Shown here: positions 9,415-27,437 of the stretch, one piece after another
Layout: each line of letters starts with the position of its first letter
How positions within the stretch are numbered: the stretch's first letter is position 1
Assembly: GCA_026397115.1 (NCBI GenBank)
Contig: JAPLVM010000044.1
Location: 1-34,175 of the forward strand
Direction: 5' to 3'
Length of the DNA stretch: 34,175 nucleotides
Source: Patescibacteria group bacterium
GTDB lineage: Bacteria > Patescibacteriota > Gracilibacteria > JAPLVM01
The notes under the pieces: generated by a model
What the model was told of the DNA's origin: nothing
Database searches by the model: none
Seen by the model: only the letters and a program-made list of their open reading frames with translations
Position numbers and translations under genes: made by a program

Positions 9415-11115
9415 ATGCTGAAAGACCAGATAATTAAACTGCTCATCAAAAAAAATATTATTACGGAAACCGAATCCTCTCATATCAGCGATGAGGGGCT
9501 GGAAGAATTTATGGTGAGAAGAGCAAATGACCTTAAAAAAATCCCCAAAACAATACCCAAAGAGCAAGCAGAAAAAATAAGAAGGATGCTTAGTTTAGAC
9601 TCACGCGAGAACAAAAAAGACAGGCCAGAAACAAGAAAGAAGGAAATCGAAAAAATCATACTGGAAATGCGCTCATACCTGAAACAATTTCAAACTAAAT
9701 GTCCTGAAGTAATCGGGATGATCCTTCTTGGAAGCAGAATTAATCCAAATAAAATTCCTTCTAAAAACAGCGATATTGATACAGTATTAATCCTGAAAGA
9801 AGGGTTCGAAGCAACTTCAAAAACAAGGGACGGACAGGCAATGGTTTGGAAATTAAGATCTTTTTCAGATAGCCTACTCACTGATTCTGGCTTGCAAGTT
9901 GAATTGGACGAATTCTACACAGCTGATAGATTTTTCGAAAAGCTAGATTCTAACGAGGATAAGAGCAAACTAATATGGGGCTGGCACCCAAAAGCAATAA
10001 GGTATATAGGAAGCAATATTGATGGAATGAATGAGGCTCAAGTCCAAACTCGCATTTTGCAAGCGCTGAACTCAAAAAAAATGCGAACGCTCAGAGAAGA
10101 AGTCATTACCAAAGCCAAAAAAACCATCTCAAAATATCTCTGTATGAAAAAAAATCATTCTACAAATAAACCCGCAAAAGAGCAGATCAATAAACCAAAA
10201 ATCATCACCTCTTACATTAACCCTGATTTGGACGCAGTGGCTTGCATCTTTGCCTATCAAGAATTTCTAACAAAAACTGGTTCTAAAGTAAAAATATGGC
10301 TAAATGGCAAACCACGCGACGAAGCCAAATTCATCATCAAAAAGTTTCATCTAAAACTCCCGAAATCAATAAAAAATCCAGCAAAAATTAATGAATTTAT
10401 CCTAGCTGATGCGAGCGACATACGCGGCATAGATCCAAAAATTCAGCTAAAACAAGTTATAGAAATCATCGACCACCGCGAAGTCCAAGACGCGCACCTC
10501 TTTCCAAATGCAAAAATACAAATCGAAAAAGTCGGCGCCGCAGCCACGCTGATCGCTGAGAAATTTTATGAAAAACGAATTACCCCATCAAAAGAATCTG
10601 CGATTTTACTTTATTCAGCCGTAATTTCAAATACATTAAATTTTCAGGCAAAGGTGGCTACTGATCGCGATCTTAAAATGTCAAAATGGCTTAAAAGCTG
10701 CGTGGAAATATCAGATTCCCTGCCCGAAGAAATGTTTGCCGCAAAATCTAATTTGAATGGCGAAAACTTAAAAGCTCGATTTCATCAAGAATTTGCATGG
10801 TTTGATCTTGCGAGTAAAAAGATCGGGATCGTTCAACTCGAAATTATAAATGGCGAAAAGCTCATTCTTGAGCGACATGCTGAGCTGATAGGAAATCTAA
10901 ATAATATTATAAAAAATTATCGTCTTGATTTCGGATTTGTAACAATAGTTGATCTAAACCACGGATGTAATTGGTTCATGACGGAAAACGCTAATATGCA
11001 AAAAATCCTGCATGAAATTTTCAAGATTAAATTTGAAAATAATGTCGCCGTAAAAAACAGCCTAATCATGAGGAAAGAGCTCGTCCCGCTAATCAAGAAA
11101 TATTTGGAGCAATAA
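9415..11115 (+). CDS. Fusion protein: N-terminal minimal nucleotidyltransferase-fold domain plus C-terminal DHH/DHHA2 domain (family II inorganic pyrophosphatase-like)
   Basis: NTase signature LLGS-x12-DID (nt ~9724-9790). The C-terminal ~300 aa align with family II PPase along their whole length (YINPDLDAVACIFAY; ILADASD; IIDHRE; KVGAAATLI; LYSAVISNTLNF; MRKELVP). The ORF track starts at TTG 9409; the first ATG is at 9415. Confidence 0.75.
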   Translation: MLKDQIIKLLIKKNIITETESSHISDEGLEEFMVRRANDLKKIPKTIPKEQAEKIRRMLSLDSRENKKDRPETRKKEIEKIILEMRSYLKQFQTKCPEVIGMILLGSRINPNKIPSKNSDIDTVLILKEGFEATSKTRDGQAMVWKLRSFSDSLLTDSGLQVELDEFYTADRFFEKLDSNEDKSKLIWGWHPKAIRYIGSNIDGMNEAQVQTRILQALNSKKMRTLREEVITKAKKTISKYLCMKKNHSTNKPAKEQINKPKIITSYINPDLDAVACIFAYQEFLTKTGSKVKIWLNGKPRDEAKFIIKKFHLKLPKSIKNPAKINEFILADASDIRGIDPKIQLKQVIEIIDHREVQDAHLFPNAKIQIEKVGAAATLIAEKFYEKRITPSKESAILLYSAVISNTLNFQAKVATDRDLKMSKWLKSCVEISDSLPEEMFAAKSNLNGENLKARFHQEFAWFDLASKKIGIVQLEIINGEKLILERHAELIGNLNNIIKNYRLDFGFVTIVDLNHGCNWFMTENANMQKILHEIFKIKFENNVAVKNSLIMRKELVPLIKKYLEQ

Positions 11116-11202: not shown

Positions 11203-11934
11203 ATGTACGACCCAGAAAAACATCACCGTCGATCAATTCGACTAAAAAATTATGACTACTCGCAAAATGGCGCGTATTCAATAACCATCTGCGCGCAGAA
11301 CCGCGAGCATTTCTTTGGAGAAATTATTAATGAAAAAATGATTCTAAATGATGCGGGAATAATGGTGAATGCGCAATGGAATGATCTAATAAATAGATTC
11401 AGCAATATTCATTTGGATCAATATATTTTGATGCCAAATCATTTTCATTGCATTCTAATTATTAATGATCAAAATGATTCGAGGCAGGCACAAGAGCCTG
11501 CCCCAACGATAATCAATCCTAGGCAGCCAGATTCAGGGCAGGCACAAGGGCTTGATTTTGATTCAGGGCAGCCACGAGGGCTTGCCCCAACGATAATCGA
11601 GGCAAGTACGGATACCCCTCGTGGGTATCCGTATCCGCATCCGCAGCCATCAAATTTCGGAAATTCTGGGCGGCCACAAAGGCCTGCCCCAACGATAATC
11701 GAGGCCCCCACAAAGAAAACCATCGGCGATATAATCGGAGCATTCAAATCAATTACCACGAACGAATATATCAACGGCGTGAAAAATAAAGGCTGGAAAA
11801 CATTCAATAAAAGATTATGGCAACGAAACTACTACGAACACATCATTCGCAACGAAAATGAATTACACAGAATCCGTGAATATATCATCAATAATCCGCG
11901 TAACTGGGGACGTAATAAAAAATCTAGGAAATAA
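11203..11934 (+). mobile_element. IS200/IS605-type Y1 (HUH) transposase, RAYT-like, 243 aa, with a low-complexity in-frame insert
   Basis: HUH motif MPNHFHCILII and a catalytic-Tyr helix region WQRNYYEHIIRNENELHRIREYIINNPRNW. The N-terminus HHRRSIRLKNYDYSQNGAYSITICAQNREHFFG is typical of REP-associated tyrosine transposases. Confidence 0.85.
11473..11715 (+). repeat. Cluster of GC-rich hairpin repeats inside the transposase ORF
   Basis: GGCAGGC-ACAAGA-GCCTGCC at 11483..11502. Direct repeat GATTCAGGGCAG(G/C)CAC(A/G)AGGGCTTG occurs twice (about 11530-11585). Perfect hairpin ACGGATACCC-CTCGT-GGGTATCCGT at 11608..11632. GGGCGGCCACAAAGGCCTGCCCC near 11668-11690. The tail GCCCCAACGATAATC occurs three times. 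Confidence 0.8.
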
Positions 11935-24173: not shown

Positions 24174-27100
24174 ATGGCCGATAAATTCAACCTCATCTCC
24201 AATAACAAACCTACTGGCGACCAACCGCAAGCAATTATTAAACTTACCGAAGGCATTGACTCAAAAACTCACGACCAATTGCTGCTAGGAGTAACCGGCT
24301 CCGGCAAAACTTTTACCATGGCCAATGTAATCAATCATGTACAGAAACCAACTCTAGTCATGGCTCATAACAAAACACTTGCCGCCCAGCTCGCCAGCGA
24401 ATTTCGTGAACTTTTTCCAGAAAACGCAGTTGATTATTTTGTTTCATACTACGATTATTACCAGCCAGAAGCATATATTGCCAAAAGCGATACCTACATT
24501 GAGAAAGAAACCACTATCAACGAAGAAATAGATAAATATCGCCACAAAGCTACTTATGATCTTTTAACCCGCCAGGATGTAATTGTCGTAGCCTCAGTTT
24601 CGGCAATATACGGACTTGGATCACCAGAAGATTATATTGGTCTAGCCGTTACTGTGAGCAAAGGACAGAATATAGCTCGTGATGATTTTTTGCGTTCGCT
24701 GATCGCCATCCAATACCGCCGTGATGATTTTAAATTTTCTCGCGGAGCATTTCGTGTCCGAGGTGATATAGTCGAGGTTTTTCCGCCTATGTCTGATTCT
24801 GCTTTCAGACTTGAATTTTGGGGCAATGAAATAGAAAAAATCCAAGAAACCGATCATCTAACAGGACAAATTTTGAATGACGTGAAGCAAATTCTTTTCA
24901 TTCCTGCTAAACACGCCATTACCTCAGAAGAACGCATCGCTGAAATATTGCCAAAAATAAGGGAGGAAATGGATCTGCGCACAGCCGAGCTTAAAGCCAA
25001 TGGCAAAATCGTCGAAGCGCAAAGACTCATGCAAAGAACAATGTATGACATGGACATGCTTAAAGAAACTGGCTATGTAAATGGCATTGAAAACTATACA
25101 CGCTATTTAACCGGCGTCATGCCTGGTCAGCCGCCTTATACTTTACTTGATTTCTTTCCAAAAAAACCAGATGGCACTCGCGATTTCCTGCTTTTCATAG
25201 ATGAGTCACACATGACCGTGCCGCAGATCGGTGCCATGCATGAAGGTAATCTCTCCCGCAAACGCCAACTTGTCGAATACGGCTTCCGGTTGCCATCATC
25301 TTACGACAACAGGCCACTGACCTGGAAAGAATTTGAAGAGCGCATGCCACAAACCATTTATGTGAGCGCTACTCCGGGACACTATGAACTTTCAAAATGC
25401 GGGGTAAAAGGAGACTTATATGAATGGTTGAAAAATAATGAGTATTCTGAAAATGCCAATGATAAACTCACCAATCAGTGGTTTGTAATTAGGCACGGCG
25501 AGGCTGACCATAATATCACTAAAACTTATGTTAATGATATAAATAAAGATAATTCTCATTTAACCAAAAAAGGTATTAGGCAAGCCAAGGAATCAATTAA
25601 AGAATTAAAAAGGCTTGGCATAACTAAAATGTTTGCTTCAGACTTTATCCGTACTCGTGAAACAGCTGAAATTGTATCTGCTGGATTAGAACTGGAAACT
25701 ATTTTTGATCCACGGATTAGAGAAATCTTTCGCGGCGACTGGGAAGGAACGGTTTATGATCCACCTCCGCGAGACTGGGACAAGTGGGCCGAAAATATAG
25801 ATTTTGCCGAAACGGGTGAAACGCAAAAACAGGTACGCCGAAGAATGAAAGATTTTATCTTAGAAAAGAACCAGGAATTATCTGGAGAAAAAATATTGCT
25901 TGTATCACACAGCGGCTCCATGAAATGCTTGCTTTCAGAATTGCAGGATAAATCTTATCCGAAGAAGATACATGATGAAATGCGTAACTGCGAGATACAA
26001 AATTTTTCATCTATCGTTGACAGCTATTTGAATTCGTCAAATCAAAAGCCAAAAGTCATTATCCTGCACGGAGCGCCAACAAAAGATCGAAGCAATGAGC
26101 CAAATTATGTTCCAGATAATGTTCGCCATTGGCTCGGCTGGCTTAAAGAAAATCTTGAACAAAATGGATTTTCTGTCACAAATCCACAAATGCCTATTCC
26201 ATGGCAACCCGAATATGAAAATTGGAAAAAGGAAATCGAAAAACTGGATATTGACGAAAATACTACTTTGGTTGGAACAAGCGCTGGCGGTACATTTTGG
26301 GTCAGATGGTTAGGCGAAACTAAAAAACGGGTTAAGAACCTGTTTTTAATTGCCCCATCAAAAATAAAGTGGGAAGAACGTCATTATCTTAATGATTTTG
26401 TTAATTTTGAAATTGATCCAGAAATAAAAAATCGCGTTGAAAACATAATAATTTTTGTATCAAACGATAGCCCAGGTATCATTCAAAGTTGTAAAATTTA
26501 CAAAAAAGCACTTTTAGCCAAACTCATTAAACTCGAAAATCGCGGACATTTCACTGCCTTCAATAACCCTGAAAACAAAAAATTCCCTGAACTCCTAAAA
26601 GAAATTCTACATTATACTAAAGACCTGAAACGAAAAAAAATAGAGTTAGGCAATAAAAATAATGATCAAGAAACACCTAGAATAATCCAACAAATTATTA
26701 GACCTACCGGACTTCTTGACCCAGAAATCTCTATTCATCCAATTGATGGACAAATCGACCATTTACTTGAAAAAATTCGCCTACGAATTAAGGCAGGTGA
26801 AAGAACACTTATTACAACTCTTACCAAAAAAACATCTGAAAAGCTTACTGACTTTCTGCGAGAAAATGGATTTAAAGTTGAATATCTACACAGTGAAGTT
26901 GAAACCCTAGACAGAATTAAAATACTCCGCGATCTTCGCCTCGGTGAAATTGACATAATCGTTGGAATAAACCTACTCCGCGAAGGAATTGATCTACCTG
27001 AAGTTTCACTCGTTGCCATTCTCGACGCTGACAAAGCCGGATTCCTGCGTTCGCGCGATGCGCTCCTTCAAACCATAGGCAGAACCGCCAGAAACGTAAA

Positions 27101-27437
27101 CGGACAAGTCATAATGTATGCCAACATAATTACACCTGCTATGCGCCAAGCCATTGACGAAACCAACCGCCGTCGCAAAATGCAAGCCGCATATAATGAA
27201 AAACATCACATCACTCCAACAACGATTATCAAAAAGATCGCTGATCTTGAATTTAAAAAGGCCGAGGGCCTCAAGAGAGAAAAACGGAAGAAAGAGGAAT
27301 ACTTTACATATCTCGACGACGATGGAAAACAGAAATATATTGGGGAGTTGGAGCGTCAAATGGATCTTGCCGTGCAAAATATGGAGTTTGAAAAAGCTGC
27401 TGAGCTCAGAGACGAGATTGCAGAGCTTATGAAGTAA
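24174..27437 (+). CDS. uvrB: Excinuclease ABC subunit B (UvrB) with a ~424-aa two-domain insertion (1087 aa in total)
   Basis: N-terminal part: [42 protein letters not shown]. C-terminal part: [70 protein letters not shown], and a UVR motif at the end. Confidence 0.93.
   Translation: [1087 protein letters not shown]
25404..26675 (+). other. In-frame insertion within uvrB: histidine-phosphatase (PGAM-like) domain (~25476..26009) plus alpha/beta serine-hydrolase domain (~26049..26618)
   Basis: PGAM-like domain: RHGEADHN (RHG at 25491), [22 protein letters not shown]. Hydrolase domain: [14 protein letters not shown], GxSxG nucleophile elbow GTSAGG (26274), late D (FVSNDSP) and GHF. The flanking residues YELSKCG and [15 protein letters not shown] are contiguous in ordinary UvrB. 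Confidence 0.8.

What the first reader, a model, noticed from the sequence alone, without database searches (positions are those of the whole stretch)
9415..11115. Nucleotidyltransferase fused to a family II pyrophosphatase-like DHH/DHHA2 domain with substituted catalytic residues
The C-terminal ~300 aa are collinear with Bacillus-type family II inorganic pyrophosphatase as I remember it. GHQNPDTD corresponds to SYINPDLD, VDHNE to ADASD, IDHH to IDHR, ISDSL to ISNTL, and SRKK to MRKE. On that alignment the first His, the second His of the DHH motif and a metal-binding Asp are replaced (Y, R and N). The enzyme may therefore be inactive or have a new specificity. It is fused to an N-terminal ~245-aa region with a minimal NTase signature (G-S-x12-D-x-D, then ELDEF). 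An in-frame ATG at 10144 sits at the domain boundary, so two products are conceivable. NTase plus DHH phosphoesterase in one chain suggests synthesis and degradation of a nucleotide-derived molecule such as an oligonucleotide, cyclic nucleotide or nucleotidylated substrate. That idea is speculative.
Basis: partly seen in the sequence, partly recalled or inferred. Interest (0 to 1): 0.6.

Follow-up and report, generated by a model that had tools for sequence, protein, structure and literature searches.

The report
One-off NTase fused to variant pyrophosphatase-like enzyme
In one ultra-small (Patescibacteria) bacterium, two complete genes that are normally separate are joined into one reading frame: a rare nucleotidyltransferase-fold protein and a pyrophosphatase look-alike whose altered active site is conserved across its whole clade. 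The join is seen only here, so it is a weak clue to function.

Summary
ORF 9415-11115 (566 aa) has a C-terminal DHH/DHHA2 domain that matches family II pyrophosphatase in sequence and in predicted fold. H9, H98 and D149 are replaced by Y, R and N. K205 is also replaced (A), and motif II DHN reads DAS.

These replacements are not decay. They are fixed in 105-120 of 120 relatives, nearly all of them stand-alone ~312-aa proteins, named by their sources as Patescibacteria with one DPANN archaeon. The signature fits none of the three known DHH subfamily-2 classes (pyrophosphatase, exopolyphosphatase, Prune). Genomes carrying the clade have ordinary pyrophosphatases at the background rate, and this genome has an H+-PPase. 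The domain is therefore probably an active phosphohydrolase with another substrate.

The N-terminal 243 aa is a confident Pol-beta-type nucleotidyltransferase fold with an intact GS/DxD/D set. It belongs to a rare, unnamed family that is otherwise mostly stand-alone.

The fusion occurs nowhere else in the databases searched. The two families are not neighbours elsewhere, and the join lies exactly where one gene ends and the next begins. TGT at 10141-10143 is one substitution from TGA, directly before ATG 10144. Functional coupling is inferred only. Interest is moderate.

The parts
9415..11115 (+). Whole fused ORF, 566 aa from ATG 9415 (TTG 9409 is an alternative start). Stop TAA at 11113-11115.
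9415..10143 (+). N-terminal domain, residues 1-243. Rare unnamed family with a Pol-beta-type nucleotidyltransferase core (about residues 70-200) flanked by helical segments.
   Evidence: AlphaFold pLDDT 95.3. Foldseek top hits are nearly all NTase-fold proteins. 13 of 41 family members hit Pfam Polbeta PF18765. 44 representatives among 1.84 billion proteins.
9730..9780 (+). NTase signature: G106-S107 (9730-9735), twelve residues, then D120 (9772-9774) and D122 (9778-9780).
   Evidence: D120 and D122 are invariant in 41/41 family members, G106 in 39/41 and S107 in 40/41.
9907..9909 (+). D165 in VELDEF on strand beta-3, the candidate third catalytic carboxylate.
   Evidence: D in 12/13 close homologues and 18/41 of the wider family. 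Strand 162-169 in the model.
10141..10200 (+). Junction and linker. TGT (C243, 10141-10143) is one substitution from TGA. In-frame ATG at 10144. A8 homopolymer at 10147-10154. About 19 residues of low-confidence linker (MKKNHSTNKPAKEQINKPK).
   Evidence: Stand-alone N-domain homologues stop 3 residues before to 6 residues after residue 243. Stand-alone DHH homologues start about 8 residues before the Tyr. Linker pLDDT is 62-75. Sequence.
10201..10620 (+). DHH domain. Motif I Y267-x3-D271-x-D273 (10213-10233). Motif II D332-A-S (10408-). Motif III D-H354-R355 (10474-10479).
10630..10632 (+). N406, in the place of the metal ligand D149 of PpaC (motif IV, ISNTL).
   Evidence: N in 118/120 relatives. 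Also.
10726..11100 (+). DHHA2 domain. A461 (10795-10797) stands in place of K205. R553-K554 (11071-11076) equal R295-K296.

Best explanation
The ORF is a lineage-specific, end-to-start fusion of two complete genes that are normally independent, in a 0.95-Mb Patescibacteria genome. It most likely arose by loss of the stop codon between two adjacent co-directional genes.

The N-terminal part is a rare Pol-beta-superfamily nucleotidyltransferase with an intact GS / DxD / D set. By inference it transfers an NMP from an NTP to an unknown acceptor and releases pyrophosphate.

The C-terminal part belongs to a clade of DHH/DHHA2 enzymes (its named members are Patescibacteria plus one DPANN archaeon) that is the closest sister of family II pyrophosphatase. 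Its active site carries a conserved alternative set: Tyr and Asn replace two metal ligands, Arg replaces His98, Ala replaces Lys205, and motif II reads DAS. By inference it is an active two-metal phosphohydrolase acting on a small substrate with a phosphate-bearing leaving group, such as a short polyphosphate or a nucleotide-derived phosphoanhydride. It is not the cell's housekeeping pyrophosphatase.

In the fused protein the hydrolase probably acts on a phosphate-containing product or by-product of the transferase (inference). It is equally possible that the two halves simply travel together.

Shown: the two folds, the motifs, their conservation, the uniqueness of the fusion and the position of the junction. 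Inferred: catalytic activity, substrates and any coupling.
For: Folds and homology:
- Searches give the C-domain relationship. The clade profile scores E 1e-52 against PPase II, 1e-6 against PPX1 and 1e-3 against NrnA-like proteins.
- Searches give the N-domain fold and motifs.

The variant active site is fixed, not decayed:
- Y in 114/120, R in 120/120, N in 118/120 and A in 105/120 relatives. D13, D15, D75 and H97 are kept in 120/120, and R295 in 118/120.
- More distant fused relatives keep Y and N together with an intact DHH, and the PPDK-type ones also keep K205. The Tyr/Asn pair therefore coexists with an otherwise PPase-like site.

It is not the housekeeping PPase:
- This genome has an H+-PPase.
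- Genomes with a match to the clade at E <= 1e-30 carry family I PPase (5/17 against 152/383, p = 0.46) and H+-PPase (8/17 against 190/383, p = 1) at the background rate.

The fusion joins two whole genes:
- N-domain homologues end within 3 residues before to 6 residues after residue 243.
- DHH homologues begin just before the Tyr.
- The linker is predicted to be disordered.

Links to nucleotide and pyrophosphate chemistry in relatives:
- NUDIX is fused twice, in opposite orders (P0070, P0169).
- NUDIX is the immediate upstream gene in the only same-class genome that carries the clade (L015).
- A cytidylyltransferase-like domain plus a PPDK-like module is fused to a Tyr/Asn-type DHH/DHHA2 domain in P0205.

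DHR in motif III is compatible with activity. Prune proteins carry DHR and are exopolyphosphatases (PMC3022644).
Against: - No biochemical data exist for either family.
- The fusion is a singleton on one MAG contig and could not be checked against reads.
- The partners of the DHH clade are heterogeneous. They include a methyltransferase, an S51 peptidase, a histidine phosphatase, PHP and a 2-thiouracil desulfurase. This genome also nests a histidine phosphatase and a serine hydrolase in UvrB. Fusion may therefore carry no functional meaning.
- Both His98 and Lys205 are lost. From memory, the H98Q variant of the B. subtilis enzyme is nearly inactive, which is why it was used to trap substrate in 2iw4. 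Loss of catalysis cannot be excluded.
- The third NTase carboxylate is conserved in only 18/41 of the wider N-domain family.
Confidence: 0.55

Rival explanations
1. Two genes rather than one. The true sequence has a stop at the junction (for example TGA where TGT now stands at 10141-10143, or a frame change in the A8 run at 10147-10154). Alternatively the fused ORF is a recent non-functional read-through variant in the population. In either case the DHH protein would start at ATG 10144 as an ordinary stand-alone 323-aa clade member.
For: - The fusion is unique among billions of proteins.
- The junction lies exactly at the natural end of one gene and the start of the next.
- TGT is one step from TGA and is immediately followed by ATG.
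- With one extra A in the A8 run, the N-domain frame would reach TAA at 10166-10168 (read).
- Most genes of this genome lack a Shine-Dalgarno sequence and have A-rich leaders like the one before 10144, so independent initiation there is plausible.
- Some stand-alone homologues are 323-328 aa long.
Against: - As assembled, the frame is open for 566 codons.
- Substitution errors in consensus assemblies are rare (general knowledge).
- With an A9 run the DHH part would have no canonical start codon downstream of the new stop.
- Fusions of this DHH clade to other enzymes are well documented in multi-member clusters, so a real fusion is unremarkable.
Confidence: 0.2
2. Writer-eraser or make-and-break module. 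The NTase nucleotidylates a target or makes an oligo- or cyclic-nucleotide signal, and the DHH/DHHA2 domain removes or degrades it.
For: - DHH-family enzymes include nanoRNases and cyclic-dinucleotide phosphodiesterases (Foldseek list).
- The top fold hits of the N-domain include protein-AMPylating enzymes (GlnE, MNT) and the signal-making HalB.
- There is a weak PADLOC hit to the candidate defence NTase PDC-S09 (E 4e-4).
Against: - The nucleic-acid and cyclic-nucleotide DHH enzymes carry a DHHA1 domain with a GGGH motif. This protein has DHHA2 and is far closer to PPases (E 1e-52 against 1e-3).
- The genome already has a RecJ-like protein and two DHH/DHHA1 (GGGH) NrnA-like proteins.
- The two families neither co-occur nor neighbour each other elsewhere.
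- No effector, HEPN or other defence gene lies nearby.
Confidence: 0.1
3. The C-terminal domain is a non-catalytic pseudo-enzyme, a phosphate or nucleotide sensor or a scaffold. Here it would regulate or localise the NTase.
For: - Four of the ten canonical PPase active-site residues are changed, including His98 and Lys205.
- The score is well below the NCBIfam equivalog cut-off.
Against: - Five metal ligands (D13, D15, D75, H97, and N at position 149) and the phosphate-binding R295 are kept in 118-120 of 120 relatives.
- The replacements are themselves invariant and chemically able to act as ligands or phosphate binders: Tyr, Asn and Arg.
- The pattern looks like a remodelled catalytic site.
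- DHR occurs in active Prune enzymes.
Confidence: 0.12

Closest known systems
Family II (Mn/Co-dependent) inorganic pyrophosphatase PpaC, e.g. B. subtilis 1k23 / 2iw4 / 1wpm
   Same: Same two-domain DHH + DHHA2 fold (TM 0.81-0.87). Collinear over about 300 residues. D13, D15, D75, H97 and R295-K296 are kept.
   Different: H9 is Y, motif II DHN is DAS, H98 is R, D149 is N and K205 is A, all fixed across the clade. The score is 151.7 bits against the 283-bit equivalog cut-off. It coexists with ordinary PPases. Here it is fused to an NTase domain.
Prune-type short-chain exopolyphosphatases (DHH subfamily 2)
   Same: DHHA2 architecture and DHR instead of DHH in motif III. This shows that DHR is compatible with catalysis (PMC3022644).
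   Different: According to PMC3022644, Prune proteins carry DHH in motif II and exopolyphosphatases carry Asn in motif I. This clade has DAS and Tyr. By sequence it is far closer to PPases than to PPX1 (E 1e-52 against 1e-6). No Prune sequence was compared here.
Minimal nucleotidyltransferases and KNTase-like enzymes of the Pol-beta superfamily (MNT antitoxin 7ae9, ANT(4') 1kny, GlnE 3k7d)
   Same: hG[GS]-x12-DxD plus a third Asp on the expected strands. The core fold is matched by Foldseek (probability 0.8-1.0) and by profile hits at the motif.
   Different: All matches are weak: no Foldseek E <= 1e-3, TM normalised to the query <= 0.40, and the window protein is below Pfam thresholds. There are extra helical segments of about 70 N-terminal and 35 C-terminal residues. 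No HEPN partner is present. The substrate is unknown.
Other fusions of the same or neighbouring DHH/DHHA2 clades (NUDIX-DHH P0169, DHH-NUDIX P0070, PHP-DHH P0170-P0176, CTP_transf_like-PPDK_N-DHH P0205)
   Same: A small nucleotide- or phosphate-handling enzyme is joined in frame to the Tyr/Asn-type DHH/DHHA2 domain.
   Different: Those fusions recur in multi-member clusters (up to 32 sequences). The NTase fusion is seen once. The partner family differs.

Membership tests
Family II inorganic pyrophosphatase (PpaC) | DHH + DHHA2 two-domain fold, collinear with solved PPases | tested here: met
   Pfam. phmmer against the PDB E 2e-25. Foldseek TM 0.81-0.87.
Family II inorganic pyrophosphatase (PpaC) | Score over the NCBIfam equivalog cut-off (NF003877, 283 bits) | tested here: not met
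   151.7 bits.
Family II inorganic pyrophosphatase (PpaC) | Metal ligands His9 and Asp149 | tested here: not met
   Y267 and N406. Y in 114/120 and N in 118/120 relatives.
Family II inorganic pyrophosphatase (PpaC) | Motif II DHN and motif III DHH (His98) | tested here: not met
   DAS and DHR. The class definition is taken from PMC3022644.
Family II inorganic pyrophosphatase (PpaC) | DHHA2 substrate-binding residues Lys205, Arg295, Lys296 | tested here: inconclusive
   K205 is A461. R295/K296 are kept as R553/K554.
Family II inorganic pyrophosphatase (PpaC) | PPi hydrolysis | not testable with these tools
   Indirect evidence only. Genomes with the clade have other PPases at the background rate.
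Prune / PPX1 exopolyphosphatases | Asn in motif I. For Prune, DHH in motif II plus DHR in motif III. For PPX, DHN plus DHH. | tested here: not met
   Tyr in motif I and DAS in motif II. Only the DHR is shared. The clade profile against PPX1 gives only E 1e-6.
NrnA / GdpP / Pde2 / RecJ (DHH-DHHA1 nucleases and phosphodiesterases) | DHHA1 domain with GGGH motif | tested here: not met
   The C-terminal domain is DHHA2. Profile E is only 1e-3 to TM1595. Foldseek TM is about 0.5.
Pol-beta superfamily nucleotidyltransferase fold | hG[GS]-x9-13-Dh[DE] motif plus a third carboxylate | tested here: met
   G106-S107, D120, D122 and D165. D120 and D122 are invariant in 41/41.
Pol-beta superfamily nucleotidyltransferase fold | alpha/beta core fold matching solved NTases | tested here: met
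   The model has pLDDT 95. Foldseek top hits are nearly all NTases, with probability 0.8-1.0, but the best E is 3e-3 and TM normalised to the target is 0.5-0.6.
Pol-beta superfamily nucleotidyltransferase fold | Pfam family threshold (NTP_transf_2 or Polbeta) | tested here: not met
   The window scores 14 bits against a cut-off of 21. 13/41 relatives hit Polbeta at E < 0.01, and the best scores 26.1 bits against a cut-off of 26.9.
MNT-HEPN toxin-antitoxin or defence NTase systems | Adjacent HEPN or effector partner, or a match to a defence model | tested here: not met
   The neighbours are tRNA-Ser, a putative lipoprotein and an IS200-like (Y1) transposase. PADLOC gives only a weak PDC-S09 hit.

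The most novel reading that the evidence does not exclude
The Tyr / DAS / DHR / Asn clade is a fourth functional class of DHH subfamily-2 enzymes, so far seen in ultra-small symbionts. It would have a rebuilt binuclear metal centre (a Tyr + Asn ligand set) and a substrate that is not pyrophosphate. In this reading the window's fusion is real and reports the physiological partner. A Pol-beta-type nucleotidyltransferase and the hydrolase would form one bifunctional enzyme that makes a nucleotidylated or polyphosphorylated product and then trims it or recycles its by-product.
Probability: 0.15. Interest if true: 0.7.

Novelty: new variant of a known kind. Interest (0 to 1): 0.4.

Why it matters
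Two uncharacterised protein families of Patescibacteria meet in one polypeptide.

The DHH/DHHA2 clade has at least 120 sequence clusters at 90% identity. Its conserved active-site signature fits none of the three described classes of its subfamily, so it is a clear target for enzymology. It may reveal a new substrate or metal chemistry in organisms whose nucleotide and phosphate economy is poorly understood.

The NTase fusion, the recurrent NUDIX fusions and one NUDIX neighbour point towards nucleotide- or polyphosphate-linked substrates. This narrows the list of substrates to assay.

The fusion itself is a singleton and may be only a read-through of two adjacent genes. Its value is as a hint, not as a system.

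Tried and rejected
- Alternative genetic code (TGA read as sense, as in some same-class relatives): rejected. Table 11 gives dense coding, and TGA ends normal-length genes such as SOD.
- Conserved neighbourhood of the N-domain family: contexts differ. They include TK/GatB, CSD with a 2'-5' RNA ligase, DprA/TopA, and a glycosyltransferase cluster in one subclade. None includes a DHH gene.
- Paralogy of the gene next to P0127 with the N-domain: rejected (hhalign probability 0.6%).
- Conserved neighbourhood of the DHH clade: variable. Examples are a ZnuABC/Fur operon with malic enzyme, a cupin with a Zn-peptidase, polysaccharide genes, and POR with flavodoxin.
- 'The clade replaces the housekeeping PPase': rejected. 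There is no depletion of family I or H+-PPases in genomes that carry it.
- Defence-system or phage origin: PADLOC gives only a weak hit and PHROGs none. The viral fold library gives only weak NTase-like hits.
- Internal promoter or terminator at the junction: none on the + strand.
- Literature on this clade or on NTase-DHHA2 fusions: nothing found in the searchable library.
- The first metagenome scan, with the wide alignment A1, failed for lack of a conserved stretch. It was repeated with the closer alignment A3.
Full report
WHAT IS THERE

The window is typical ultra-small-bacterium DNA. Its genome is 0.95 Mb in 95 contigs, about 90% complete, and uses the standard genetic code. One open frame runs from ATG 9415 (or TTG 9409) to TAA 11113-11115 and encodes 566 aa. 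It lies between tRNA-Ser with a small putative lipoprotein gene on one side and an IS200-like (Y1) transposase gene on the other.

C-TERMINAL HALF

Pfam finds DHH and DHHA2 above threshold. The best NCBIfam model is Mn-dependent inorganic pyrophosphatase, at 151.7 bits against a cut-off of 283. phmmer aligns residues 265-562 end to end with B. subtilis PpaC at E 2e-25. A profile of the clade scores 1e-52 against family II PPases, 1e-6 against yeast PPX1 and 1e-3 against an NrnA-like phosphodiesterase. The AlphaFold model (pLDDT 93.8) superposes on closed-form family II PPases with TM 0.81-0.87.

Three independent alignments (phmmer, MAFFT, hmmalign) give the same catalytic columns:
- H9 is Y267.
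- D13, D15, D75 and H97 are kept.
- H98 is R355.
- D149 is N406.
- K205 is A461.
- R295/K296 are kept.
- Motif II DHN reads DAS.

THE SUBSTITUTIONS ARE A CLADE SIGNATURE

The protein search returned 232 relatives. The 120 listed are 40-50% identical to this half, and almost all are stand-alone proteins of 312-328 aa. Their sources name them as Patescibacteria (Parcubacteria, Dojkabacteria, Berkelbacteria, Buchananbacteria) plus one DPANN archaeon.

In these 120 proteins the counts are:
- Y in 114, R in 120, N in 118 and A in 105.
- The retained Asp and His ligands in 120.
- R295 in 118.

This is purifying selection on a remodelled site, not decay.

According to PMC3022644, DHH subfamily 2 splits into three classes:
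- pyrophosphatases: His in motif I, DHN, DHH;
- exopolyphosphatases: Asn in motif I, DHN, DHH;
- Prunes: DHH in motif II, DHR in motif III.

The signature here (Tyr, DAS, DHR, Asn in motif IV) fits none of them. DHR in Prune shows that an Arg at this position is compatible with catalysis.

More distant relatives keep Tyr and Asn together with DHH, and the PPDK-type ones also keep K205 (PPDK-type fusions P0177 and P0179; PHP fusions with DHHK). The Tyr/Asn pair therefore appears to be the older change, with R98 and A205 a later one.

IS IT THE CELL'S PYROPHOSPHATASE?

This genome lacks a family I PPase but has a full H+-translocating PPase. In an even sample of 400 Patescibacteria genomes, 17 besides this one match the C-domain at E <= 1e-30. 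The weakest of these matches (27-30% identity) may be ordinary family II PPases rather than clade members.

Those 17 genomes carry ordinary PPases at the background rate:
- family I PPase: 5/17 against 152/383, p = 0.46;
- H+-PPase: 8/17 against 190/383, p = 1.

Twelve of the 14 genomes with close matches (E <= 1e-50), counting this one, have another PPase. The clade is thus a sporadic accessory enzyme and not a replacement PPase.

The genome also holds a RecJ-like protein and two DHH/DHHA1 (GGGH) NrnA-like proteins. The nanoRNase role is therefore probably already filled.

N-TERMINAL HALF

On its own, the N-terminal half scores only 14 bits against Pfam NTP_transf_2. A full HMMER scan of 1.84 billion representatives finds a small family of 44 representatives. 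Nearly all are stand-alone proteins of 250-290 aa annotated as hypothetical, for example in Candidatus Uhrbacteria.

Conservation in the family:
- D120 and D122 are invariant.
- G101, G106, S107, R108, K113, S119 and W188 are nearly invariant.
- D165 is kept in 12 of the 13 closest members.

The AlphaFold model is confident (pLDDT 95.3, pTM 0.90). Its Foldseek hits in the PDB are almost all nucleotidyltransferase-fold proteins: GlnE, MNT antitoxins, kanamycin and spectinomycin nucleotidyltransferases, HalB, Pol beta and poly(A) polymerases. All these hits are weak. The best E is 3e-3, and TM normalised to the target is 0.5-0.6 for the minimal NTases.

Thirteen of 41 family members hit Pfam Polbeta, and seven hit NTP_transf_2. 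The family profile aligns its GS...DxD stretch onto an MNT antitoxin. The NTase fold with a complete catalytic set is supported. The family is new and unnamed, and its substrate is unknown. It occurs in 3 of 400 other sampled genomes, and none of those has the DHH clade.

THE FUSION

No other protein in the two large collections joins the two families. About 25 loci with N-domain homologues, each with up to 5 kb on either side, contain no DHH gene. All other sampled DHH-clade genes sit in open frames of 308-338 aa.

The stand-alone N-domain proteins end between 3 residues before and 6 residues after the window's residue 243. The stand-alone DHH proteins begin about 8 residues before the Tyr. 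The roughly 19 residues in between are predicted to be disordered. The ORF is therefore two whole genes joined end to start.

At the join the DNA reads TAT CTC TGT ATG AAA AAA AAT:
- TGT is one substitution from TGA, which would end the N-domain at ...KYL and leave ATG 10144 as the start of a 323-aa DHH protein.
- An A8 run follows. With one extra A, the N-domain frame would reach TAA at 10166-10168, but the DHH part would then have no canonical start codon.

I rate a true single ORF at about 0.8 and a sequencing or assembly artefact, or a transient variant, at about 0.2. Most genes here lack a Shine-Dalgarno sequence and have A-rich leaders like the one before 10144. A second product starting at 10144 therefore remains possible.

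WHAT THE FUSION MEANS

I repeated the protein search with a padded query so that only proteins of 396 aa or more were candidates. With Pfam scans it shows the DHH clade and its near relatives fused to:
- NUDIX, twice and in opposite orders;
- histidine phosphatase;
- a methyltransferase;
- an S51 peptidase;
- PHP, in seven clusters of up to 32 members;
- 2-thiouracil desulfurase;
- a PPDK_N plus phosphohistidine module, which in P0205 is preceded by a cytidylyltransferase-like domain.

In the only same-class genome that carries the clade, the gene lies 47 nt downstream of a NUDIX gene.

Several partners make or handle pyrophosphate or nucleoside polyphosphates: NUDIX, nucleotidyltransferases of two folds, and PPDK-like modules. 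This fits a role in removing or trimming a phosphate-bearing product. Other partners do not fit. Coupling is an inference with modest support.

COMPARISON AND NOVELTY

The C-domain works like a family II PPase in fold and probably in two-metal chemistry. It fails the family's defining residues and its curated score cut-off, so it should not be annotated as PpaC. The N-domain is a new, rare branch of the Pol-beta NTase superfamily.

Earlier notes of this scan had already flagged the variant DHH clade in other genomes. One follow-up reached the same 'fixed, not decayed' verdict. I reached that verdict independently, before reading those notes.

What is new here:
- the NTase partner;
- the catalogue of fusion partners;
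- the graded series of signatures;
- the test against other PPases.

I found no publication on the clade. Overall this is a new variant of a known kind. It is of moderate interest and needs biochemistry.

Noticed in passing
window 24174-27437: UvrB carries an in-frame insert holding a histidine-phosphatase domain (His_Phos_1, residues 437-609) and a serine-hydrolase domain (residues 650-795) between its helicase lobes. A relative of the DHH clade (P0165) is fused to the same His_Phos_1 family.
   Followed up: partly
L015 1489-3425 (genome G006, same class): The DHH-clade gene lies 47 nt downstream of a co-directional 321-aa NUDIX-domain gene. NUDIX is also fused to the clade in P0070 (C-terminal) and P0169 (N-terminal). 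The association recurs.
   Followed up: partly
proteins P0170-P0176 (about 600 aa, up to 32 members per cluster): Recurrent PHP-domain plus DHH/DHHA2 fusion with the signature Tyr, D(T/A)NN, DHHK and Asn, and no Lys205.
   Followed up: partly
proteins P0177, P0179 and P0205 (954-1133 aa): PPDK_N plus PEP-utilizer (phosphohistidine) module fused to a Tyr/Asn-type DHH/DHHA2 domain that keeps DHH and Lys205. In P0205 a cytidylyltransferase-like domain is added at the N-terminus, while elsewhere it is a separate 189-195-aa gene product.
   Followed up: partly
L011-L013, L036-L039, L043-L045: In one subclade the stand-alone N-domain (NTase-fold) gene sits inside a glycosyltransferase cluster (epimerase, GT2, DUF2304, N-domain, GT2, GT4, GT4). 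Its stop nearly abuts the start of the next GT2 gene. This hints at a cell-envelope role for that subclade.
   Followed up: partly
protein P0139 (513 aa): An N-domain homologue carries an extra N-terminal region with an HEFAH (HExxH-like) motif and a weak Peptidase_M41 hit.
   Followed up: no
L047 378-4451: One stand-alone DHH-clade gene directly follows a Fur / ZnuA / ABC metal-uptake operon. This may bear on its metal dependence.
   Followed up: no
window 11203-11934: IS200-like (Y1) transposase ORF directly downstream, with a low-complexity insert between its N-terminal part and the Pfam-matched C-terminal part.
   Followed up: no
genomes G029, G034 and G019 (same class): Matches to the DHH query contain in-frame TGA codons (19, 2 and 1). 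This suggests some same-class relatives read TGA as sense, unlike this genome.
   Followed up: partly
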